This document shows positions 2,545 through 54,541 of a stretch of 64,000 nucleotides of DNA, piece by piece (the stretch's first letter is position 1; each line of letters begins with the position of its first letter). The stretch spans positions 215,016,001 through 215,080,000 of the forward strand of contig OX597815.1 of NCBI GenBank assembly GCA_951406725.2, read 5' to 3'. A model generated the notes under the pieces. The model searched no databases, was not told the DNA's origin, and worked only from the letters and a program-made list of their open reading frames with translations. The translations under genes were made by a program, and so were the position numbers. The DNA is from Octopus vulgaris (lineage: Eukaryota).

Positions 2545-2896
2545 AAGAATGTTTTGCGTAATAAGATAAAAAACAAGGCTGTATAGATATTAGAGCATTT
2601 ATAGATAGAAGGTCTTACAGCTGTTTCTAGGATATTAATTAATAATATCCCTTAATATTAATTAATATCCTAGAACCACTGTAAGACCTTCTATCTATAA
2701 ATGCTCTAATATCTATACAGCCTTGGTTTTTTATCTTGTTGCGCAAAACATTCTTATATACACACGCTGACATAGAACCAACGTTGAACCCTTTATTCGC
2801 AATATTACCGAATCTGGACCTTAACTATGGTCTGTCTATAGCACTTATTCAGCATTACCTGACATCTTTGGTTCTCAATGACACCACTATCTCTTA
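2545..2896 (+). mobile_element. Fold-back element in (TA)n; probable 5'-truncated, 5'-inverted Penelope-like pseudo-LTR
   Basis: Near-perfect inverted repeat 2545-2755 with ~100-bp arms. The right arm continues as a unique tail to ~2896. The left arm read on the minus strand gives stem II plus GAAA-C-AGCT-G-TA, the 3' half of a hammerhead. Confidence 0.7.
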
Positions 2897-11283: not shown

Positions 11284-12056
11284 TAATAATATAATATAAT
11301 GAAATTATTGTATACAGTGCTCAGGTGCACCACAACTTGTCAGAAAGTGCATATAAAGTACATGCAGTAATGTAAAAATGTCTGGAAAGCAAACAATGTA
11401 TGAGTCAGATACATGCTTGTGTGTGTAAGGAGGGGAGAAAATCAGGTGTAGTGTTGGCGAATCTCAGAAAGCATGGAAGTTTTGAAGGATGCAGTGCTCC
11501 GACAACTAACAACTGATTCCGGCAGTTTGTTCCACACTTCAGCAACTCTCAGCATGAAAAAATGTTTCCTGAAGTCATGGGAGCTGTGCTGTTTTCTGAC
11601 TTTGTAAACATGTCCACGGGTGTTAGATGGGTGGAGTTTGAAAAGATGCTCAGAGTTATTGTTTTCACGATGGTTGATAATTTTATGGGTGTCTGCCAAG
11701 TCAGTTGCCAGACGTCGGAGTTTCAATGTGTCCATGCCCAGGGAAGTAAGGCATTCAGGATATGGCAAATGCCTGATGGAGGGTATTCTTTTGGTTGCAC
11801 GTCGCTGAACGGCTTCCAGACGATTGATATCCTGGGCAAGATAGGGGTTCCAGACCGGTGATGCAAATTCCAGGTGAGGTCTTACCATAGCTATATAAAG
11901 CCGCAGATAGATAGCCGGAGAGCGGCTCACAAAGGATTTGTTGAGTGATGCCAAGACACCCTCAGCCTTCTTGACAATTTTAGCGATGTGTTTTGTCCAA
12001 TGCAAATCACTGTCGACAATAACACCCAGGTCAGGTTCACATGAAGACTTTTTGAG
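11284..12056 (-). mobile_element. 5'-truncated CR1-group LINE (RT C-terminal region plus 3' UTR)
   Basis: ORF 11442-12116 contains DLGVIVDSDL..., LYIAMVRPHLEFASPVWNP, LEAVQRRATK, NTRGH..K and FF..RVAEVWNKLP. The 3' UTR ends in an (ATT/ATATT)n tail. The first ~20 aa of the ORF come from flanking DNA. Confidence 0.9.
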
Positions 12057-12781
12057 ATAGATATATATGGGGCTTGGGTTAGAAAAAACACACAGTAATA
12101 AATTAATCATCTCCATTCAGTTTGTGACTAGAATCTATGGCAGATTCCTTGACACCAAACTCTTAGCCAGCAGCAACAAAGCTTCCAATGTCATGTATTT
12201 TCTTGCAGACTTCTCTGCATTATTTGTTAAGATCAGGTGCCTTTGTATTTTTGTCTCCTTAAACTTATGAACCTTGCACCAAAATTTGAAACCATTATTT
12301 TTTTTTTTTTTTTTTAAGATTGTTAGCTGGCAGAACCTTCAGCATGCCAGTCAAAATGTTTAGTGGTATTTCTTCGGGTTTTACATTCTGAGTTCAAATG
12401 CCACCTAAGTCAACTTTGCCTTTTCATCCTTTCAGGGTCGATGAAATGCATACCAATTGAGCACTGGGTTCAATCTAATCGGCTAGCCTCCTCCTCCAAA
12501 ATTGCTGGCCTTGTGATTAAATTTGAAACCATTATTTTAAGGTGGCAAGCTGGCGAAATTGTTACAATGCTAGGAAAAATACTTAGCAGCATTTCGTCCA
12601 TCTCTATGCTTTGAGTTCAAATTCTACTGAGCTCCACTTTGCCTTTTATCCTTTCAGGATCTATAAAATAAGTACCAGTTGTCATTGGGGTCAATGTAAT
12701 CGACTTGCCCCTCCCCCAAACTAGCTGACCTTGTGTCAAAATTTAAAATCATTATTTTTATTTTTATTATTATTATTATTA

Positions 12782-20305: not shown

Positions 20306-22086
20306 CATATATACGACGGGCTTCTTTCAGTTTGCATCTACCAAATCCACTCACAAGGCTTTGGACGGCCCAAGGGTATAGTAGAAGGTACTTGCCCAAG
20401 GTGCCATGCAGTGGGACTGAACCCGGAACCATGTGGTTGGTAAGCAAGCTACTTACCACACAGCCATCCCTGCAACTTAATAAAATAATGATGATAATAA
20501 TCCTTTCTACTATAGGCACAAGATCTGAAATTTAGGGGAGGGGGATAGTTGATTACATCAACTCCAGTTCTCAACTGGTACTTATTTTATCAACCCCCAA
20601 AAGGATGAAAGGCAAAGTCAAATTTGAACTCAAGGTTGACTTTGCCTTTCATCCTTCTGGTGGTCAATAAAACAGATACCAGTTGAGTACTGAGGTTGAT
20701 ATAATCAACTTACCCATCCCCCTGAAATTACTTGCCTTGTACCAAAATTTGAAACCAATAATAATGATGGTAGTTGAAGGAGATTGGAATAGAATGCCCT
20801 GTAGGGTTTCTACAGAAAGTTTGCCTCTTAAGGACAGAAAAGCTTATCAGGAAGGTTTTAAGCACTTGAAAGACGATTGAAAGCTTGTGGATACCTAAGG
20901 TTACCGGTAGTAACCCACTATCCACATAAATTCTACTAGGAATAAGAATGAACTTGAGTCAAATCAATAATAATAATAATCCTTTCAACTATAGGCCAGA
21001 AATTTTGAGGAGGAGACAAGTTGGTTACTAGTTGATTACATTGACCCCAGTGTGTCATTGGTACTTAATTTATCAACTCTGAAAGGATAAAAGGCAAAGT
21101 TGACCTCAGCTGAATTTTAACTCAGAACGTAAAAACAGATGAAATGCCCCAAAGGATTTTGCCCAGGGTGCTAACAAATCTTATTTCTTTATTTCCCTCA
21201 AAGGGCTAAACATAGAGGGGACAAACAAGCACAGACAAAGGGATTAAGTCGATTACATCGACCTCAGGGCGTAACTGGTACTTAATTTATCAACCCTGAA
21301 AGGATGAAAGGCAAAGTCGACCTTGGCAGAATTTGAACTCAGAACCTAAAGACAGACAAAATACCTATTTCTTTACTACCCACATGGGGCTAAACAGAGA
21401 GGACAAACGAGGACAGACAAACAGATTAAGTCGATTATATCGACCCCAGTGCATAACTGGTACTTATTTAATCAACTCCGAAAGGATGAAAGGCAAAGTC
21501 GACCTCGGCAGAATTTGAACTTAGAACATAAAGACAGACGAAATACTGCTATGCATTTTTTCCGGCATGCTAACAATTCTGCCAGCTCTCTGCTAGTAAT
21601 AATAATAATGCAAAGAAGAGAAAGATTTCTGTTTCTATATTTTTGTTTTGTTTTGGTTTTTTGGATTTTTAGGGAGGAGGGGGGGGGGGTTTAAAATATT
21701 GTTAGTTGAAATAAACACCAGAATTTGGTACCTTGCTTTTTAGAATGTTCTTTAAAGTTTACATTACATCTGCCAGTCATTGTAAGGACAGGGATGGAGG
21801 AGAGACAGGAATAAATGTAAATAAATAAATAAACAGTGCTTAGCTAAGTGAATCATTCAAACAATTCTAAAAATGAGTTATCCGTTTCTTCATTCTTTGT
21901 CTTCTAGCTTTCTTGAAATATCTAAGCCAGTTCTTGAGCACTCAAAATAGAAATGGAAGTTGTAGGTTAGCCAAGACCTGTGGCCACAATCCAGCACCTA
22001 TGCAAGATACATTACCATTTTTCAGTATACATATACTGGCATATACACATGTAAATACATACCTATACACACACACACACATCTGC

Positions 22087-38947: not shown

Positions 38948-39408
38948 AGAAATGTCTTGTTAAAATAATATGTAATATAATTAATAATAATAACAATAAT
39001 AATAATAATGATAATATTAATAATAATAATATAAATAAAACAAAATGAACTTTACTGTTAATTTTATCGTCAAATAACTAAAATTTGTAAAATTTCAAAT
39101 TAATTCTGAATTCAGACTTTTTCATTTTATATTGATTTATTTTTAATATGTTGTTTGTTATTGTTATGTCTTTTTTTAAAAATCTTTTATTTGTTTCAGT
39201 CATTGTACTAAGGCCATGCTGGGGCACTGCCTTGAAGGGTTTTAGTCAAACTGATCAATCCTAGTACTTAACTTTTAAGTCTGGTACTTTTTCTATTGGT
39301 CTCTTTTGCCAGGCTGCTATGTTACAGGGATGCGAACACACCGACACCAGTTGTTAAGTGAGTGGTATTGGTAGGACAAACACAGGTTCAAAGAAACACA
39401 CACATTGA

Positions 39409-39442
<34 letters not shown>

Positions 39443-39446
<4 letters not shown>

Positions 39447-39738
39447 TGCAAATGGTTTTTTTATTACAGCACCATGATTTGCAATCCTGTAAATATTAAT
39501 AATGGTATTTTTATATAAGCTTAAAGCTTATAGCATATAGCAATCACCATGCAATGACTAAGGAAAATAGTCTAATAAAGGGGCATATAAGCCCTTGACA
39601 GGAAAAAGAAGGCTTGCCTATCCATGCGGATAGGAAAGCCTTTTTTTTCTGTCAAGAGCTTATATGCTTCTTTATTAAACTATTTTCCGTAGTCATTGCT
39701 CAGTGATCACCATAAGTTTTAAGCTTATATAAAAATAC
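39443..39738 (-). mobile_element. Fold-back element in (TA)n (Penelope-like 5'-inverted fragment)
   Basis: Inverted repeat 39505-39738 centred on tatcc-atgc-ggata (~39625). The unique tail 39443-39504 abuts the (TA)n at 39412-39442. Confidence 0.65.
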
Positions 39739-40444
39739 TATATATATGTGTGTGTGTGTGTTTATACATATATGTATGTGTGTATGTATATATACATACA
39801 TTCAATTGGCTTCCATTGGTTATTTAAACTGAAACTATTGTAAGGAAAAGAAAACATCATTAGCATTAATAACAAAAATTATTCTAAAAGGTGAAAAAGA
39901 AAACTCTTAAAAGATCAAAAATTAAAATAAATTATGAAAGCAGTAAGTTTGATCCTTGGTCACTATGGTGACAACTCCAAAAATATTTTGGCCTTATTGA
40001 ACCTTCTTAGCTAAGCATATTCAACATACAGCTACCTGATCACAGGATAACCTGGGGAGTTTGGAAAAATTTCCCAAGGCTCCTTCTGGCTGAAGAATGT
40101 ACTTTTAAGTGGAAATTCATGGTGTCTGCAGTTATATCAGGAATAAACAAGAGAGTCTCAACATTAACGCTTAATCTGCTAAAGCAACAGACAAATCTCC
40201 CTTAAATGAAACTCCAGTATTTTAATCAAAGAAGAACACATTTGATGACTTAGTCCTAGATACCCCTAAACACATGGAATAGTCATAACTCGAATACTTT
40301 TGGTCACAGATTTACTCATTCACAGTTGAGCTTGGGTTCAGCAACAGGTATTGAAATATAAGTTAACTTCACTCAAATCAAGTATAGATGGGCAGATGGA
40401 TACCTGTATATATATATATATGTGTGTGTGTGAGTGTGTATATA

Positions 40445-40475
<31 letters not shown>

Positions 40476-40476
<1 letters not shown>

Positions 40477-40725
40477 AGAGAATAAGATGTACGAACGCTG
40501 CAATAATATATATATAAAAATACAAAATGGAACAAGAACGTAAAACATTCAAATAAACGATACAAAAAACATGAACGGGTCATTCGAGGCCTCTAATCTT
40601 CAGTCCAGCTGAAATTGCGAGGATGATCAGATTCTTCACTGACGATTAGAGGCTTCGAATGACCCGTCCGTGTTTTTTGTATCATCTATTTGAATGTTTT
40701 ATGTTCTTGTCCCATTTTGTATTTA
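40476..40725. mobile_element. Fold-back element in (TA)n
   Basis: Arms ~40518-40604 and ~40638-40725 are reverse complements, as shown by the mirrored ORFs MTRSCFLYRLFECF / MTRPCFLYHLFECF. There is a ~33-bp spacer. Confidence 0.7.
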
Positions 40726-40737
40726 TATATATATATA

Positions 40738-40908
40738 CTTTATTTAAAGCAGCAAAAAATTCAACAAAACCTGTTACTCTGAACAGAAAACTCAGAGTAA
40801 CAGGTTTTGTCGAATTTTTTGCTGCTTTAAATAAAGCATATTACTCTACCACTGGTATTTGAGTACTTTTTTTTCCACTTTGTTTCACATTTATGTGTTT
40901 ACTCCGGT
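40738..40908 (+). mobile_element. Fold-back element in (TA)n with the 3' half of a hammerhead
   Basis: Hairpin 40738-40836 with ~45-bp arms, then a tail to 40908 and (TA)n. GAAAA-CTC-A-GAG-TA at 40786-40799. Confidence 0.7.
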
Positions 40909-40935
40909 ATATATATATATGTATATTTATGTGTG

Positions 40936-41521
40936 TAGTTAAAAAGTAAAGGTGGAAACAACATGAAAATATGTTTAAAGATTGTTTCATATTTGTTATG
41001 TTAAGCAACTTTTATATAAAATATTGTTGGTTTCAATGCATATGTCCATCTTATCACATATCAAAGATTCAAAGAAAAATTAGGTTATAAGGAAAAATTG
41101 CAAATTAAAAACAGTTTGTATTCATATTTTGCATGTAGTTAAGAACATCTTTGGAATTGTATCTTAAGGTCTCTTCTTGTTGTCTATGTAGAGGTCTGGA
41201 ATGGGGTTCAAAAGGTCAAGTATGTAGGGGTTTGGAAACCCAATTTCAGACCCCAACATAGAAGAGACTTTAAGATAAAATTCCAGACATGTTCTTAACT
41301 ACACATAAAATATGAGAACAAACTGCCTTAAATTTCCTAATTCTTGACTTTGAATTTTAATATTTGATAAGATGATCATTCATATAAAAACTAATGATAT
41401 TTTATAAAAGTTACTTAATGTAACAAATATAAAACAATCTTTAAACATACTTTCATCCTGTCTCCATCTTTACTTTTTAACTATAACTTCTGATTTGTAT
41501 GGATTATTAACCCCTTTTCAA
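40936..41521 (+). mobile_element. Older, diverged fold-back element (~270-bp arms)
   Basis: tagttaaaaagtaaaggtgga (40936) pairs with tccatctttactttttaacta (41463-41483). Several internal blocks are mirrored. A short tail is followed by (TA)n. Confidence 0.7.
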
Positions 41522-41718
41522 TTATATATATATATATATATATATACCAATTAAGAACAGTCAACATGCTAGATATAGACGTCAAATCGCCATTCTCCAC
41601 AAAAGATTATGTTCTCAGATCAAACTCAACACAAAACCATAGCAATAAACAAGTGAAAATATACGAAATAAATATTTATATTTATTTCGTATATTTTCAC
41701 ATGTATATATTTTCACTC

Positions 41719-41752
<34 letters not shown>

Positions 41753-41757
<5 letters not shown>

Positions 41758-42178
41758 AATATGTTACGTTACTTGATAGTCAAGATAAAACTCTGAGTTT
41801 CAGATGCCGAAGTGGGAATCCACGACATCTCTTCGGTTATCTGGCTATTTCAGATAACCGAAGAGATGTCGTGGATTACCACTTCGGCATCTGAAACTCA
41901 GAGTTTTATCTTGACTATCGAGTAATGTAACATATTATTCTATATATATATATATATATATATATAACTTATTAAATCATCATTTTCCTTTTCCACATTT
42001 CATTTTACATTGTAAAATGAAATGTGGAAATTGATGATTTAATGTCTGTTCTCAGCATATTGGCATGGAAATAATTTTTCTTTTGCCTTTGTTTATAAGT
42101 TGTTTATAATTTTAACCTTTAAAGGTATTTTAATATGCTACCACTTTTGATGAAATTTTTTTCTGAAAAACATTTTAT

Positions 42179-42247
<69 letters not shown>

Positions 42248-42489
42248 AAATTAATTTAGGGTAGAAATTGATATTTATCAATTAGAACCAGTGGTCTAGC
42301 ATATTAAAAAAATCCGAAGATTAAAATATTTATATATACCAATTAAGGACTGAACATGAAAAGTGGACAGTCAACTTTTCGTGTTCAGTCCTTAATTGGT
42401 ATATATAAATATTTTAATCTTCGGATTTTTTAATATGCTAGACCACTGGTTCTAATTGATAAATATCAATTTCTACCCTAAATTAATTT

Positions 42490-42526
<37 letters not shown>

Positions 42527-43027
42527 ATAAAATGTTTTTCAGAAAAAAATTTCATCAAAAGTGGTAGCATATTAAAATACCTTTAAAGGTTAAAATTATA
42601 AACAACTTATAAACAAAGGCAAAAGAAAAATTATTTCCATGCCAATATGCTGAGAACAGACATTAAATCATCAATTTCCACATTTCATTTTACAATGTAA
42701 AAGGAAATGTGGAAAAGGAAAATGACGATTTAATAAGTTATATATATATATATATATATATATAGAATAATATGTTACATTACTCGATAGTCAAGATAAA
42801 ACTCTGAGTTTCAGATGCCGAAGTGGGAATCCACGACATCTCTTCAGTTATCTGAAATAGCCAGATAACCGAAGAGATGGTGTTGTGGATTTCCACTTCG
42901 GCATCTGAAACTCAGAGTTTTATCTTGACTATCAAGTAACGTAACATATTATTGTATAGATAAATTTCCTCTATTTACATAATATTGAGGTCTCTTTCTT
43001 TCTTTTGTTATCTTACCGTTTTCACCA

Positions 43028-43028
<1 letters not shown>
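41753..43028. mobile_element. Composite 1.2-kb palindrome made of three TA-separated fold-back modules
   Basis: 41753-42366 is the reverse complement of 42372-42953, with centre gtggac-a-gtcaac. Each arm contains a ~190-bp hairpin and a smaller hairpin. The unique tail 42954-43028 is followed by (TA)n. Confidence 0.9.
42794..42853 (-). ncRNA. Minimal type I hammerhead ribozyme motif (canonical CUGANGA copy)
   Basis: Minus strand: AGAUAA-CUGAAGA-GAUGUCG(UGGAUUCCCACUU)CGGCAUC-U-GAAA-CUC-A-GAG-UU-UUAUCU. Stem I is 6/6 complementary, stems II and III form, and there is one extra U before GAAA. Three more copies have CCGAAGA: 41783-41842(-), 41852-41911(+), 42863-42925(+). Confidence 0.65.
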
Positions 43029-43075
<47 letters not shown>

Positions 43076-43466
43076 GGAGGGAGAGAGAGAGAAATTTATA
43101 AGTTTTATGTATATATATAGATAGATAGATAGATGTGTGTGTGTATAAAGAGAGAGAGAGTGAGTGAGAGGCATACACACACATACACGTGTATATATAC
43201 AACGCATTCATTATAAAAAATAAGGCAAGTTGCCATTGCCAATTTTGTTAACACTCAGACACTCAGATATGATGTTTCACTAAAATTTAAATACTTTGTA
43301 GTAGGAATTATATTATAAGTGAATCAGGAAGACTGCATTTCTTACATTTAGCAGTTCTTATATTCCACTGGTTTACATTGTTGAAAGTGTTGCAAGAGGA
43401 GAGTGAGTACTCTATGTTCCTGCCTATGAATCTCTTGTGGTAGGTGGAGACGAATAAATTTTATAG

Positions 43467-44042
43467 TACCTTTGCCTTAAGAATTTATTGAATCATATAC
43501 CCCTACTTCAAGAATTTATTGAATGATACTTCTTCAAAAATTGTTGAATGGTATGTTTTCTGCCTTGAGAATTAATTGAGTGGTACCTCTGCCTCAAGAA
43601 TTAATTGGGTAGTACGTCTGCCTCCAAGAATTAATTGAATGTACCACTGCTTCAAGAATTGAATGGTACCTCTGCATCAAGAACTAACTGAGTGGTACCT
43701 CTGCCTCAAGAATTAATTGAATGGTACTTCTGCCTCAAGAACCAAGTGGTACTTCTGCCTCAAGAATTTATTGAATGATACCTCTTCATCAAGAATTAAT
43801 TGAAAGGTACCTCTATCTCAAGAACTGAATGGTACCTCTTCTTCAAGAATTAAGTGAATGGTATCTCTACTTCAAGAATTGAGTTGTAGTACCTCTGCCT
43901 CAAGAATTTATTTGAATGGTGTCTCTATTTCAAGGACTGAATGGTACTTCTGCCTCAAGATTTAATTAAATGGTGCCTCTGCCTCATGAATTAATTGAAT
44001 GATACCTCTACCTCAAAAATATTTTACATAGTTCCTCTGCCT
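43467..44042. repeat. Minisatellite, ~29-bp unit, about 20 diverged copies
   Basis: Consensus CTCTGCCTCAAGAATTAATTGAATGGTAC repeated head-to-tail with no unique spacers. Some units are 25 bp, lacking 4 bp. Confidence 0.9.
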
Positions 44043-44812
44043 AAAGGCGGTGGGTTCACAAATTCTTTAGAGTTTTGGAGAGAATGCTTTGTTTTGACTC
44101 TAAGTGCTCTGAGCTCAAATTTCACCAAAGCCAGTTTGTTCAAGAAAGTGCTAGTTCAGGGCAATGGATTAGTGGGATTGAAATATCAGTTCTGGATCTG
44201 TGCATTCTGAGTTCAAGTTCTGCTCATCACCAACAAAAAAAATTGGTTCTTCTGTTTGGAGAGGTAAGATGCAGATTGTATCAGAAATAGGAAAAAATCT
44301 GTGGGACAGGTTCCTTGATTCAGTCAGAAGATCAGCTTTTGGCATCTCTTGGTTTGATGTCTAGATGGCAAGTTAATGAAAAACTCACCAATTATGCAGT
44401 AGTGTTTGGAGCAGGACTCAGCAAATTGGTCAATATTGACCCCTGTGGGAGTGGGGGGAGGTTATGTGGCTATCCTATGTGTTGAAAGCCCAACTATATC
44501 AATGCAATATGATTGATTTTTATTGTTCTTTATTAATTTCATTAAGTATTCATCTTTTTTTTGTCTTTTCCTTTACTCGTTTCAGCCATTAGTCTGTGGT
44601 CATGCTGGGGCACCACCTTAAGAAATTTTCTTCAAACTAATCAACCCCCATGCTTATTTTCTTTTTAAGCCTGGTACTTATTGTATTGGTCTCTTTTGCC
44701 AAACCACTAAGTTACAGAGACATAAACACACCAATACCAGTTGTTAAGGGGTGGTGGAGGACAAACACAGACAAAGACACTCACATTAAGATATATATAT
44801 TTATATATATAA

Positions 44813-47800: not shown

Positions 47801-48952
47801 AAACAGTTTTTGTTTGTTTTAAACACAGACATGAAGTCCTACTCACCGTGATCTTTATAACTAAATATCAAGTTCTAAAAGCATCCAATGCAATGATTAA
47901 AAAATGTTAAGGAACCACAGACATGCAGTCTTTTCAGATAATCACAGATTAGTTTTAACACTTGAGCATTTAAACCGATCATATCAGGTGCACATATTCA
48001 ACTTGATTTATTTTCAATCTGGCCAGATCCAGCCTCTTACACCTATCCTACAATGTCATTCTAAAAATTTCAAAGCTATGAGATAATGCATGATTAATTA
48101 CAAAAACTGTGAATAAATAAATATTATATTTGACAGAGTAATCTGAATGCTAAGGGATTAAGCTAACAACGTTTTAGACACAAGCAGATTTTGCAGGTAA
48201 CTTCAAACTGAACACCTTTCAGCTTGGATGGAGAAGATATTTATTTTATATTGCAATAAGTAAACAATAACGTTGTTGGCTATGGTTTTCCAACGAAGCA
48301 GTTACTGATTTACTGAATTTCTGACAGTATGTCTGTGTAATTCAGTACAGAACGAATATCCTTTCTACTATAGGAACAAAACCTGAAACGTTGTGGGGAG
48401 TGGCTAGATGGTTACGTTAACCTCAGTAATCAAATTATACTTATTTGATTGACCCCAAAAGGATAAAAAACAAATCGACCTTAACGGAATTTGAACTCAG
48501 ATACAAAAATCAGAAGAAATTCCACTCAGCATTTTATTTTGTTTTGCATGCTAACAATTCCGCCAGCTTGCTGAATTTCGCTTCAGAACAAATATCTTAA
48601 TGTATATATACACACACATATATGCGCACACGTGTGTGTATGTGTACAATTCAACACAATAAAAATACATATACATACAATCATACACATAAATACAAAG
48701 ACCTCAACCAAGCCACTTTCAAACATAATTGAACTTTTAATCTTTAACCATTGTAGCCAAACTACTGAGTACTGAATACTTTTATACATACACATCCATT
48801 TGGCCTTTTGCTTATATAATTTTTTTGCATTCTTTAATACATGCATACATACATACATACATACATACATACATACATACATACATACATACATACATAC
48901 AGACATATGCAAACCTAGAACCTATTCTATCTGTCTCATTTGCTGAACCGTT

Positions 48953-49149
48953 ATACTACACTAATACTTCTATTACTACTACAACTACTACTATCATTAT
49001 TATTCTTATTATTATAATTATTAATATTACTAATACAACAACTACAAACAACAACAACAACAACAACTACTACTACTACTACTACTACTAATACTACTAC
49101 TACTACCACTACAACTACTACTACCACTACGACTACTAGTACTACTATA

Positions 49150-49195
<46 letters not shown>

Positions 49196-49781
49196 TTACA
49201 ACTACAAAAACTACTAATTTTATTATTAATATTATTATTATCATTATTATTAATATTACTATTATTATTGATATTAATAATATTATTAATATTATTATTA
49301 TTATTATTACTATTACTACTACTACTACAGCTACAAATACTACTACTCCTACTGCTACTAAAACTACTATTATTATTATTTTTATTTTTACTACTACTAT
49401 TACTACTACTACTACTACTAATACAACTACTACTATTATTATTATTATTATTAATATTTTATTATTATTATTAATACTATTATTATTATTATTACCATTA
49501 CCATTACTACTACTACTACTACTACAACTAATATTATTATTATTACTATCATTATTATTAATATCATTATTTTTTATTATTATTATTATTATTATTACTA
49601 TTACTTTCAACACTACTACTACTACTACTACAACTATTATAATTAGTATTATCAACATTAATATTCTTATTAATATTATTATTATTACTACTACTACTAC
49701 TACTACTCCTACTACTACAATTACTACTACTAATACTACTACAAATATTATTATTATTATTGTTATTATTACTATTAGTAT

Positions 49782-49813
<32 letters not shown>

Positions 49814-49847
49814 TTATTATTGTTATTATTATTATTATCATTATTAT

Positions 49848-49879
<32 letters not shown>

Positions 49880-50239
49880 TTACTACTATTAATATTTTTG
49901 TTATTATCATTATTACTATTATTACTACTACTACTAATATTACTACTACTACTACTATTATTATCTTTATTACTATTAATACAAGTGCTACTGCTACTAT
50001 GATTATTATTAATATAATCATTATAATTACTATTACTATTACTATTACTACAACTAAATATACGACCACTACTCCGACTACTACCACTACTACTATTATT
50101 ATTATTATTGCAATAAATTTTAATTATTATTAATATCATAATCATTATCAGCATCCTTAATGTTATTATTATTATCGGTATTGTTATTATTATTACTATT
50201 CCCATTACTATTACTGCAACTACTAATACTAATACTAGA

Positions 50240-50279
<40 letters not shown>

Positions 50280-50347
50280 AAACTACTATTATTATTATTA
50301 TCATTATTATTATTATAATAATTTATATCCATATCATTATCATTATA

Positions 50348-50394
<47 letters not shown>

Positions 50395-50860
50395 TGTTAT
50401 TATTATTATTATTATTACTATTACTACAACTACTACAACAACTACTACTACAACTATTATTATTATTATTATTATCAATATTATCATTATTATTATTATA
50501 ATTATCATTGTTATTATCATTATTATTATCAATATTATTATTATAACTATTATTATTAATATTAATATTTCTATTACTATTACTATTACCATTACTACTA
50601 CTACTAATACTACTGCTACTACAAATACTACTACTATTATTATTGTTATTATTATTATTATTATCATTATTACTATTATTATTACTAATATTATTATTAT
50701 TACTATTACTATTACTATTTTTCTTACTACTAGTACTACTACTATTATTGTTATTACTACTACTACTACTACTACTACTACAAATACTACAACTACTACA
50801 AAAACTACTATTATTATTATTATCATTATTATTATTATTATTATAATTAATATCACTATA

Positions 50861-50892
<32 letters not shown>

Positions 50893-51494
50893 CATTATTA
50901 TTATTATTAATGGTATTATTGTTATTATTATTACTATTACTACTACTACTACAACAACTACTACTACAACTATTATTATTATTATTATTATTATCAATAT
51001 TATCATTATTATTATTATATTTATCATTATTATTATTATGACTATTACAATTAATATTAATATTTCTGTTACTATTACCATTACTACTACTACTAATACT
51101 ACTGCTACTACAAATACTACTACTAGTATTATTGTTATTATAATTATTATTATTATCATAATTACTATTATTATTACAAATATTATTATTACTATTACTA
51201 TTACTAGTTTTCTTACTACTACTACTACTACTATTTATGTTACTACTACTACTACTACTACTACTACTACAACGATTATTATTATCATTATTATTAGTAG
51301 TAGTATTATTAATATTACTATTATTATTAATTTCATTATTATTATTACTACTACAACAACTACTACTACTACTAGTACAAAAACTACAACTACTACTACA
51401 ACAACTACTACTACTGCTATTACTACTACTATTACTATTATTGATATTATTATCATTATTCATATTATTGTTATTAATATTAATAGAAATATTG

Positions 51495-51527
<33 letters not shown>

Positions 51528-51783
51528 GCAGTAACAGTAGTAGTAGTATTAGTAGTAGTAATAGTAATAGCATTAGTAATAGTAATTGTAATAGTAATAG
51601 TAATAACAATGATAGTAATAATAATAATGATAATAATTATAAAAATAATAACAATTGTAGTAGTAGTTGTAGAAGTAGTAATAGTAGTGGTAGTAGTTGT
51701 AGTAGTAGAAGTAGTAGTAGTAGTATTAGTAGTAGTAGTGGTAATACTACAAGTAACAGTAATAGTAATGGCAATAGTAATAG

Positions 51784-51828
<45 letters not shown>

Positions 51829-52986
51829 TAATTATAATTATAATAATAATAACAGTAGTAGTAGTAGTTGTAGTAGTAGTAATAGTAGTAGAAGTAGTAT
51901 TAGTAGTAGAAGTGGTAATACTAATAGTAATAATAATAATTATTATTATAGTAGTAGTAGTTGAAGTAGTAATAGTAACAGTAATACGAATATATATTGG
52001 AATATTAATAGTAATAGTACTACTGCTACTACTACTACTACAACAAATACTACTACTACAACTACTACTAAAACTACTACTACTACTACAATTATTAATA
52101 TTATTATTAGTAGTAATAGTTGTAGTTGTAGTAGTAGTAGTGGTAATAGTAAAAGTAATATTAATAATAATAATAACAATAACAATAATGATAGCAATAA
52201 TGATAATGATAATAATAATTTTAGTAGTAGGATTATTTGTAGTAGTAGTATTAGTAGTCGTAGTAGAGCAATAGTAGTAGTAGGAGTAGTAGTAGTAGTA
52301 GATGAAATAGTAATAGTAATAATGATAATAATAATAGTAATAATAATAAGAAGAATTACGAATGATAATAATAATACTAATATTAATAATAATAATAATA
52401 ATTATTATTTTTATTATCATTATAATTATCATCATCATTATCATTATCATTATAATTACTATAACTATAACTAATACTACTACTAAAACTACTACTACCA
52501 CTATTACTACTACTACTACTACTACTACTTATACTATTCTTTTTCTTATTTTTTATTATTATTATTAGCATTAATATTGTTATTATAATTACCATTATCA
52601 TTATCATAATCATTATTATTATCATTATCATCAATATTATTATTACTATTACTATTACTATTACAATTACTACTACTATACTACTTCTACTACTACTACT
52701 ACTACTACTACTATTAATATTATTATTGCTATTACTACTACATTAATGCTAATACTTCTTCTACTACTACTACTGCTACTATTACTACTACTACTACTAC
52801 TACTACAACTATTATTATTATTACTGTTATTATTATGATCATTATCATAATCATTATCATTATTATTATTGCTATTACTATTACTATTACTTTAATTATT
52901 ACTACAACTACTACTACTACTACTATTAATATTATTATTATTATTATTATTATTACTACTACAACTACTAATACTACTACTACTAC

Positions 52987-53022
<36 letters not shown>

Positions 53023-54504
53023 TACTACAACTACTAATACTACTACTACTACTATTATTATTATTATTGTTACTACTATAACTAGTACGACTATTATTAG
53101 TATTTTTATTAATATTAATATTATTACTACTACTACTACAATTAGTACTACTACTACTACAACTTTTATTATTATTAGTATTATTATTATTATTACTAAT
53201 AATATTACTATTAATGTTATTACTATTAATACTATTACTATTAATACTGCTACGACTATTACTGATACTACTACTACTACTACTACTACTATTATTATTA
53301 CTATTATTATCATTATTTCTATTCCTATTACTACTACTACTATTATTAATATTTTTTATTAATATTATTATTATTATTACTACTACAACTACTAATACTA
53401 CTACTACTATTATTATTATTATTATTATTATTACTACTACTACTAGTACGACTATTATTAGTATTTTTATTATTATTAATATTATTACTACTACTACTAC
53501 AATTAGTACTACTACTACTACAACTTTTATTACTATTAGTATTATTATTATTATTACTAATAATATTACTATTAATGTTATTACTATTAATACTATTACT
53601 ATTAATACTGCTACGACTACTACTGATACTACTACTACTACTACTACTACTACTATTATTATTACTATTATTATCATTATTTCTATTCCTATTACTACTA
53701 CTACTATTATTAATATTTTTTATTGATATTATTATTATTATTATTATTATAATTATTATGAATACTATTTTTATTATCATTATCATTTTCATTATCATTA
53801 TCATTATAATTACTATTACTATTTCTATTACTATTACTACTACTACTACTATTACTCCTACTACTATTACTACAACTACTACTACAAATACTATTATCAT
53901 TTTTATTTTTATTATTACTATTATTTTTACAATTACTCTTACTATTACTACTATCATCATCATTATTATTATAATTATTAATATTATTACTACTACTACT
54001 ATTACTACTACTACTACAACTATTATTATTAATATTATTATTATTACTTTTACTATGACTACTACTACTACAACTACTACTTTATTATTAATATTATTAT
54101 TATAATTACTATTAATATTATTATTATTAATACTACTACTATTACCAATACTACTACTACAAATACTACTACCTCAACTACTACAACTACTAAAACTACT
54201 ATTATTATTATTATTTTTATTATTATTATCATTATTATTAATAATACTATTATTATTATTACTATTACTATTACTATTAATATTTCTATTACTATTACTA
54301 TTAATACAACTACTACTACCACAACTACTACTACTGATTTTACTACAATTATTATTATTTTTATTATTGTTGTTATTATTGTTATTATTATTAATATTAT
54401 TATTATTATTATTATTACTATTACTATTTCTACTACTACAAGAACTACTATTACTACTACTACTATTATTATTATTATTAATATTATTATTATTATTATT
54501 GTTA

Positions 54505-54541
<37 letters not shown>

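What the first reader, a model, noticed from the sequence alone, without database searches (positions are those of the whole stretch)
41753..43028. Palindrome of palindromes: a three-module fold-back unit duplicated in inverted orientation as one piece
Seen: the whole 41753-42953 segment is one hairpin with ~600-bp arms and a centre near 42369. Each arm is a string of three unrelated modules joined by (TA)n, and two of the modules are hairpins themselves. Mismatches inside the 190-bp inner hairpin (acgtt/acatt, ttgat/tcgat, loop ctggctatttcag vs ctgaaatagccag) recur in mirror image in the other arm, so the inner hairpin formed and diverged before the large inversion. Only the right arm continues into a unique tail (42954-43028) and (TA)n, the same long-arm-plus-inverted-short-arm layout as the single elements nearby. 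Known: Penelope-like elements often carry an inverted partial pseudo-LTR at the truncated 5' end. Inference: a chain of neighbouring ribozyme-bearing fragments was copied as one composite, protein-free unit, i.e. recursive fold-back retroposition.
Basis: partly seen in the sequence, partly recalled or inferred. Interest (0 to 1): 0.82.

Follow-up and report, generated by a model that had tools for sequence, protein, structure and literature searches.

The report
Palindrome built from older retroelement palindromes
Three small repeat insertions, two of them hairpins, sit side by side and were copied once in mirror image to give a 1.2-kb palindrome; this is likely a one-off local DNA copying error rather than a new composite jumping unit, although a single retrotransposon-driven copy is not excluded.

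Summary
The nested palindrome is in the window as described. The arms (41755-42362, 42376-42953) differ at 8 bases and 2 small indels over 518 non-TA bases, and the inner hairpins predate the large one. Contigs of a public run branch exactly where the arms part, so an artefact is unlikely.

Modules A, B and C are pieces of three separate high-copy repeat families. Only A has a (degenerate) hammerhead fold, and the 'unique' tail is A's own family tail. The private haplotype of this B copy has about 2-3 times single-locus depth in two runs, so no dispersed composite family is seen.

The left end carries a base found only in the inner hairpin's partner arm, so it was copied from that arm and is no independent sign of reverse transcription.

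Odds: local DNA template switch at the C element's fold-back 50%; one read-through RNA inserted by a Penelope-like enzyme 33%; artefact 7%; mobile composite family 3%. No genome was available, so the genome-wide junction test is open. The scan has noted Penelope-type hairpins, and one palindrome extended from such an element, elsewhere in this genome, but not this sequence.

The parts
41547..41719 (-). Element D, left neighbour: same repeat family as module C, with its own small fold-back; outside the large palindrome
   Evidence: (joints from D to C in contigs; loose end before 41559)
41720..41753 (.). (TA)17, left boundary of the palindrome
41754..41940 (.). Module A, left copy: arm A1 41754-41843, 7-nt loop 41844-41850, arm A2 41851-41940; hammerhead cores at 41836 (-) and 41858 (+); no tail; the end base at 41754 is of the A2/A3 type
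41941..41966 (.). (TA)13 linker
41967..42180 (+). Module B, left copy: short inverted arm, apex 42010, long arm; orientation (inferred from long-arm geometry) opposite to A and C
42181..42244 (.). (TA)32 linker (16 units in the other arm)
42245..42362 (-). Module C, left copy: 3' end and tail of the C/D family
42363..42375 (-). Apex: 6-bp imperfect inverted repeat (5 of 6 pair) around base 42369; natural C/D-family sequence belonging to the left arm
42376..42492 (+). Module C, right copy
42493..42524 (.). (TA)16 linker
42525..42738 (-). Module B, right copy, apex 42695; its apex-spanning contig is found exactly in 3 of 4 runs
42739..42764 (.). (TA)13 linker
42765..42953 (.). Module A, right copy: arm A3 42765-42854, loop 42855-42861, arm A4 42862-42953; hammerhead cores at 42847 (-) and 42869 (+)
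42954..43028 (+). 75-nt tail of the A family, present only on A4; high-copy in contigs of public runs
43029..43052 (.). (TA)12, right boundary, followed by (GA)n and non-repeated flank

Best explanation
Three unrelated repeat fragments joined by TA tracts, likely inserted one at a time by Penelope-like enzymes, were likely copied once in mirror image by a local template switch during DNA synthesis, giving a single 1.2-kb palindrome that holds older hairpins. Step 1 (shown): A, B and C are separate high-copy families, and A and B had their own fold-backs, with diverged arms, before the large copy was made. Step 2 (inferred): DNA synthesis turned round at the C element's fold-back point, a 6-bp imperfect inverted repeat, and copied about 600 bases of neighbouring sequence backwards. 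Step 3 (inferred): at the far end the new strand used the partner arm of the inner A hairpin for its last 1-13 bases, ran into (TA)n and rejoined the chromosome at a TA tract, which is its own reverse complement. The same end results if both arms first had the tail and the left one lost it later by such a switch. Which arm was the original is not settled.
For: (a) A1, A2 and A3 end in C before (TA)n and A4 has G plus tail. G plus tail is a common family state: an exact 36-nt contig over 42941-42976 has depth 7500 in X2, and the only other letter listed at 42954 is T. A1 otherwise carries A4's two private alleles, the nearest 13 bases away, so its end was templated by the partner arm. A cDNA started on an A4-type RNA would not give this base. 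(b) Neither arm is a subset of the other, and the apex sequence belongs to the arm without A's tail; in 3 of 3 other hairpins where I could read it by eye (inner A, 40481-40737, 40738-40905) the loop belongs to the tail-bearing arm. (c) The apex has 5-of-6 microhomology. (d) The arm-shared B contig at about 42020-42065 has 1.9, 2.8 and 5.0 times the depth of a non-repeated flank contig in X1, X19 and X20 (X20 is shallow, flank depth 3.9; X2 has no flank contig), while B-family bins sum to 10^3-10^4. (e) B lies opposite to A and C and has its own fold-back, as expected of separate insertions. (f) None of the 8 arm substitutions is A-to-G on the A/C sense strand, so there is no editing trace of a hairpin-rich RNA step; weak. 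(g) Two-switch copying between inverted arms is an established mechanism (PMC8604942, passages; PMC11724301, abstract).
Against: The outer ends lie exactly at A's short end and long end, as a Penelope-type insertion predicts directly (PMC11167929, parts 1-2 of 4). Depth cannot tell two copies from three, so a donor locus is not excluded, and the tool warns that contig depth is no copy number. In 4 of 6 listed C-family joints one arm starts at 42374-42378, like this apex (tables cut, one may be clipping). So the apex looks like a usual product of that family, which fits a pre-existing C hairpin or a reverse transcriptase stop equally well. A 600-base backward copy is much longer than the local fold-backs of about 5-34 bp in PMC11724301 (abstract), and the 1-nt spacer is unlike the 40-80 bp of ODIRA junctions (PMC10766186, passages). 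Whether other A-family short ends also carry C could not be read, because the read tool skips TA junctions.
Confidence: 0.5

Rival explanations
1. One-off Penelope-type insertion of a read-through RNA (5' transduction). A transcript starting in C ran through B and the A hairpin to A's tail; the 175-nt A4-plus-tail piece served as the cis signal; reverse transcription started at A's two start sites on the two target strands, and the two cDNAs were joined at the C apex.
For: The outer ends match A's short and long ends. A Penelope enzyme starts at two nearby internal RNA sites, extends both target strands, needs only a short stretch near the hammerhead, and does not need ribozyme cleavage (PMC11167929). 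pLTRs can move unrelated sequence in trans (PMC3846280, passages). Both boundaries are (TA)n. The apex position recurs among C-family copies (4 of 6 listed joints). Depth allows a third copy.
Against: The C at 41754 needs an extra conversion step. The apex loop is on the arm without the tail, unlike 3 of 3 other hairpins read, which rules out simple self-priming from the tail-bearing strand. Published cargo lies between repeats of one family, whereas C and A are unrelated. No editing trace. X1 depth is 1.9 times the flank, closer to two copies than three.
Confidence: 0.33
2. Assembly artefact: a fold-back long read or polishing error created or homogenised the left arm.
For: No listed contig spans the apex or a flank junction, and the left-arm B alleles (41979, 42002) were laid in 0 of 4 runs while the right-arm version was laid in 3 of 4. 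At 6 of 7 informative differences the left arm keeps the inner hairpins paired (sign test p = 0.125).
Against: The arms differ at 8 bases, 5 of them transitions and 4 at CpG/TpG or CpG/CpA pairs, and by 16 TA units. Both ends continue into different flanks, which needs two turns. In X19 the contig with the alleles private to A1 and A4 (42910-42953, depth 50.4) ends exactly where A1 and A4 part, and the G-plus-tail branch has depth 27.3; a heterozygous base there would look the same. Contigs drop rare variants, so a missing allele is no proof of absence.
Confidence: 0.07
3. A composite, protein-free C-B-A unit that has moved repeatedly as a family.
For: Only that the three modules were duplicated together once. 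One X2 contig joins B-family to C-family sequence in another arrangement (42611 to 42428, 30 letters between).
Against: The private B haplotype and the B apex contig have single-digit multiples of flank depth in the 3 runs with a flank contig. A-family copies elsewhere have many different apexes (15 shown of 18 joints). Sequence look-ups among earlier findings gave no relevant look-alike (these cover only noted windows).
Confidence: 0.03

Closest known systems
Canonical Penelope-like element insertion with an adjacent inverted 5'-truncated copy and one-sided tail (PMC8557442, passages; PMC3846280, passages)
   Same: Module A: head-to-head arms, tail on one side only, type I hammerhead fold, (TA)n target
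   Different: No ORF and no tandem pLTR; tail 75 nt instead of 30-40; the whole hairpin is itself duplicated inside a larger palindrome
pLTR-mediated trans-mobilisation of unrelated DNA in Adineta vaga (PMC3846280, passages)
   Same: Unrelated sequence carried together with a PLE-type end, if the RNA route is right
   Different: There the cargo lies once between two direct pLTRs of one family, with a target duplication; here the cargo is in both inverted arms, between two unrelated families, and no donor is shown
Template switching between inverted-repeat arms and fold-back inverted duplication (PMC8604942, passages; PMC11724301, abstract; ODIRA in PMC10766186, passages)
   Same: Short imperfect inverted repeat at the turn, two switches, one end homogenised to the partner arm
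   Different: About 600 bases, longer than the yeast local events; 1-nt spacer and no triplication, unlike ODIRA
Metazoan non-LTR retrozymes (bioRxiv 10.64898/2026.07.22.740005, part 1 of 5)
   Same: Non-coding repeat with a type I hammerhead fold, tied to PLEs
   Different: No head-to-tail units; the fold is degenerate and locked in a hairpin
Terminons (PMC6431247, passages)
   Same: Chain of modules with a hammerhead near a 3' end
   Different: Terminons are giant, coding and telomere-bound; here the modules are tiny, non-coding, of mixed orientation, joined by (TA)n, and only one has the fold

Membership tests
Non-autonomous PLE-type inverted insertion (module A) | Inverted 5'-truncated copy joined head-to-head | tested here: met
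   A3/A4 and A1/A2 with 7-nt loop; other family copies have other apexes
Non-autonomous PLE-type inverted insertion (module A) | Tail at one end only | tested here: met
   42954-43028 on A4 only; family sequence; 75 nt against 30-40 in PMC8557442
Non-autonomous PLE-type inverted insertion (module A) | Type I hammerhead in the repeat | tested here: inconclusive
   Fold with stems of 6, 7 (4 in A4) and 4 bp in all four arms; 4 found against a mean of 0.02 in 100 shuffles. Core is off the recalled consensus (C for U at the second core base in 3 of 4 copies, U at the cleavage base, an extra U); not the minimum-energy fold of A2 or A4; no Rfam hammerhead among 104 matches
Non-autonomous PLE-type inverted insertion (module A) | (TA)n target | tested here: met
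   TA tracts on both sides; target preference in PMC8557442
Non-autonomous PLE-type inverted insertion (module A) | Sequence link to a PLE with RT and GIY-YIG domains | not testable with these tools
   No genome held; none of the 9 ORFs of 130 aa or more in 1-49000 lies in the finding
PLE-mobilised cargo (trans-mobilisation) | Cargo between terminal repeats of one family | tested here: not met
   C and A are unrelated
PLE-mobilised cargo (trans-mobilisation) | Donor copy elsewhere | tested here: inconclusive
   Depth 1.9-2.8 times flank in the two deeper runs: two or three copies
PLE-mobilised cargo (trans-mobilisation) | Target-site duplication | not testable with these tools
   Both ends lie in (TA)n, where a duplication cannot be read
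Non-LTR retrozyme | Two or more head-to-tail units, each with a complete hammerhead | tested here: not met
   Only inverted, truncated copies; definition
Terminon-like chain | Hammerhead-ended segments with telomeric repeats and ORFs | tested here: not met
   No fold in B or C; no telomeric repeat seen in the sequence; no long ORF
Template-switch inverted duplication | Short inverted repeat or microhomology at the turn | tested here: met
   42363-42368 / 42370-42375, 5 of 6 pair
Template-switch inverted duplication | Source is local: only two copies, and an unduplicated ancestral allele exists | tested here: inconclusive
   Depth fits two or three copies; no contig shows the ancestral allele
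ODIRA in the strict sense | Inverted triplication with 40-80 bp spacers and an origin inside | tested here: not met
   Duplication with a 1-nt spacer (PMC10766186); origin not testable

The most novel reading that the evidence does not exclude
A 175-nt leftover of a Penelope-like element (degenerate hammerhead plus tail) acted as a cis handle that let the enzyme copy a read-through RNA spanning two unrelated repeats and two RNA hairpins, from both target strands. Hairpin insertions would then be re-copied into larger hairpins recursively, making Penelope-like elements a source of ever longer double-stranded RNA templates and of 5' transduction into both arms.
Probability: 0.33. Interest if true: 0.6.

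Novelty: new member of a known kind. Interest (0 to 1): 0.3.

Why it matters
On the favoured reading this is a dated record of how retroelement hairpins and TA tracts seed longer palindromes: a curiosity, not a new system. On the RNA reading it would show that tiny Penelope-type remnants can carry upstream sequence into both arms of an insertion. It would also give a natural test of how such inverted insertions are made (two cDNAs rather than self-priming, since neither arm contains the other). Either way the 600-bp near-perfect stem would be a strong double-stranded RNA substrate if transcribed (predicted fold: 453 of 601 pairs long-range); transcription was not tested.

Tried and rejected
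No whole genome is held, so the genome-wide junction search could not be run.

Raw reads: X21 and X23 laid 0 reads and X22 laid 41, mostly on the tail, so they are no test. Contigs do not show TA junctions, because the tool skips them, and none listed spans the apex. The left-arm B alleles had no cover in 4 of 4 runs, which proves nothing with contigs.

An exact 28-nt pattern from A found 0 matches in each of metagenome, viral and prokaryote contigs, as expected for an animal repeat. Rfam gave only sub-threshold hairpin-type matches (104, none at gathering score). A relaxed hammerhead scan of 39300-43300 added two hits outside B and C, at the chance level (mean 2.1 in 40 shuffles). The shuffle control crashed and was redone.

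Rejected: simple self-priming from the tail-bearing strand (apex loop on the wrong strand); chain assembly by template jumps between co-oriented RNAs (B is reversed and has its own fold-back); an editing trace (none on the sense strand); MITE (arms meet head-to-head with a one-sided tail and variable apexes).

Searches for a printed description of nested or cargo-bearing PLE palindromes found none in the listings; the library lacks most subscription journals. No supplements were read; those of PMC8557442 and PMC3846280 may list related families.

Full report
Observation. The window holds one hairpin centred on 42369, with arms 41755-42362 and 42376-42953. Over 518 non-TA bases the arms differ by 8 substitutions (41754, 41816, 41824, 41859, 41878, 41979, 42002, 42357 on the left), a 3-nt and a 1-nt indel, and one TA tract of 32 versus 16 units. 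Five substitutions are transitions and four are at CpG/TpG or CpG/CpA pairs. Each arm is A-(TA)n-B-(TA)n-C. Masked self-BLAST shows no similarity among the modules and confirms the A and B hairpins. The alignment of the four A arms shows two alleles shared by A1 and A4, their alternatives shared by A2 and A3, and the 7-nt loop in mirror image.

What the modules are. Contigs of public runs show A, its tail, B and C each as high-copy families. Other A copies fold back at many different points (15 shown of 18 joints), so each insertion makes its own apex. The tail is the deepest part of the A family, not unique sequence. A type I hammerhead fold occurs 4 times in the 64-kb window, once in each A arm (mean 0.02 in 100 shuffles of 39300-43300), and not in B or C. 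Against the consensus core, which I recall and did not take from a call, it is degenerate. It is not the minimum-energy fold of A2 or A4 alone, and Rfam lists no hammerhead among 104 sub-threshold matches. A thus has the anatomy described for Penelope-like elements: inverted truncated copy, one-sided tail, TA target (PMC8557442, passages; PMC3846280, passages). A sequence link to a coding element could not be tested. C is the 3' end and tail of the same family as the left neighbour D (joints and a loose end). B has its own fold-back and, judged by its long arm, lies opposite to A and C, so the chain was most likely built by separate insertions into TA tracts.

Is it real? No listed contig spans the apex and the tool skips TA junctions, so the proof is indirect. 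In X19 the contig with the two alleles private to A1 and A4 covers 42910-42953 at depth 50.4 and stops exactly where A1 and A4 part; the branch with G and tail has depth 27.3. A heterozygous base there would look the same. The arm-shared B contig is 1.5-2.6 times as deep as the right-arm B apex contig in X1, X19 and X20. Against this, the left-arm B alleles were laid in 0 of 4 runs, and the left arm keeps the inner hairpins paired at 6 of 7 informative sites (p = 0.125); dropped variants in contigs, natural homogenisation or polishing could each explain that. Raw reads gave no test (0, 41 and 0 reads). I put an artefact at 7%.

Does the chain move as a unit? The B haplotype of this locus has 1.9, 2.8 and 5.0 times the depth of a non-repeated flank contig in X1, X19 and X20 (X20 flank depth only 3.9; X2 has no flank contig), and 2.5 times the median of 15 joint contigs in X19, while family bins sum to 10^3-10^6. 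The tool warns that depth is no copy number, so I read this only as a few copies, not tens. A dispersed composite family is unlikely (3%); two copies versus two plus a donor cannot be told.

How was the one duplication made? Neither arm contains the other: the left has the natural upstream bases of C at the apex (42363-42375), and the right has A's tail. The apex is a 6-bp inverted repeat with one mismatch. Because the apex sequence is on the arm without the tail, self-priming from the tail-bearing strand cannot give it; in 3 of 3 other hairpins read by eye the loop is on the tail-bearing arm.

The left end is the key. A1, A2 and A3 have C before (TA)n; A4 has G and the tail. G plus tail is common in the family (exact contig, depth 7500, X2; the only other letter listed is T). 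A1 is A4-type up to 13 bases from its end, then A2-type. Its end was therefore most simply templated by the inner hairpin's partner arm, and that step alone puts the end at the short-end position. A two-switch copying event of the kind described for inverted-repeat arms (PMC8604942, passages), turning at the C fold-back and leaving through the A hairpin into (TA)n, explains apex, end base and low copy number in one event (50%). Its weak points are the length, about 600 bases against about 5-34 bp in PMC11724301 (abstract), and the 1-nt spacer against 40-80 bp in ODIRA (PMC10766186, passages).

The RNA rival stays open (33%). A Penelope enzyme starts at two nearby internal sites, extends both target strands and does not need ribozyme cleavage (PMC11167929, parts 1-2 of 4), and pLTRs can move unrelated DNA (PMC6431247, passages). 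A read-through RNA from C to A's tail, copied from both strands and joined at the apex, gives the right outer ends. In 4 of 6 listed C-family joints one arm starts at 42374-42378 (tables cut), so the apex looks like a usual product of that family; this fits a pre-existing C hairpin and an RT stop equally. The rival needs an extra conversion for the end base and shows no editing trace (0 of 8 substitutions A-to-G on the sense strand). If C proves common at A-family short ends, it becomes the better reading. About 7% is left for routes not listed.

Known and new. Module A works like, and probably is, a non-autonomous Penelope-type inverted insertion; membership is not proven without a coding partner. 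It fails the retrozyme definition (bioRxiv 10.64898/2026.07.22.740005, part 1 of 5) and the Terminon anatomy. I found no printed description of a nested PLE palindrome in the listings. PMC5625713 (passages) reports unusually many hairpin-forming loci in Octopus bimaculoides. Earlier notes of this scan describe many such hairpins in this genome and one 35-kb palindrome extended from such an element (unchecked); sequence look-ups found no relevant copy of this chain. Verdict: a real, probably single-locus nested palindrome made by known processes; interest 0.3.

Noticed in passing
window 39502-41719: Five more fold-back elements between TA tracts directly left of the finding (39502-39741, 40481-40737, 40738-40905, 40936-41483, 41547-41719), of different families and ages (about 73-89% by self-BLAST for the four it lists): a dense insertion cluster.
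   Followed up: partly
window 40738-40905: This element shares the 11-base stem III word of module A's hammerhead fold but is cut off just inside it; possibly a related family.
   Followed up: no
window 42374-42378: In 4 of 6 listed contig joints of the C/D family one arm starts within these 5 bases, next to a run of T: a possible preferred stop or RNA 5' end of that family (tables cut; one case may be clipping).
   Followed up: partly
window 42611 and 42428 (contig of run X2): One contig joins B-family to C-family sequence with 30 other letters between, a different composite elsewhere in that genome.
   Followed up: no
window 2546-2754 and 20535-20721: Two further hairpins; the second is a fold-back inside a dispersed repeat that has many copies in the window.
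   Followed up: no
window 43466-44046: Degenerate tandem array of 25-29-nt units.
   Followed up: no
window 48900-61000: Long low-complexity trinucleotide region, GC 16-26%, with a strong skew switch near 58000 and large inverted blocks.
   Followed up: no
window 11442-12116 (-): 224-aa open frame that looks by eye like the C-terminal part of a LINE reverse transcriptase (recalled resemblance, not scanned).
   Followed up: no
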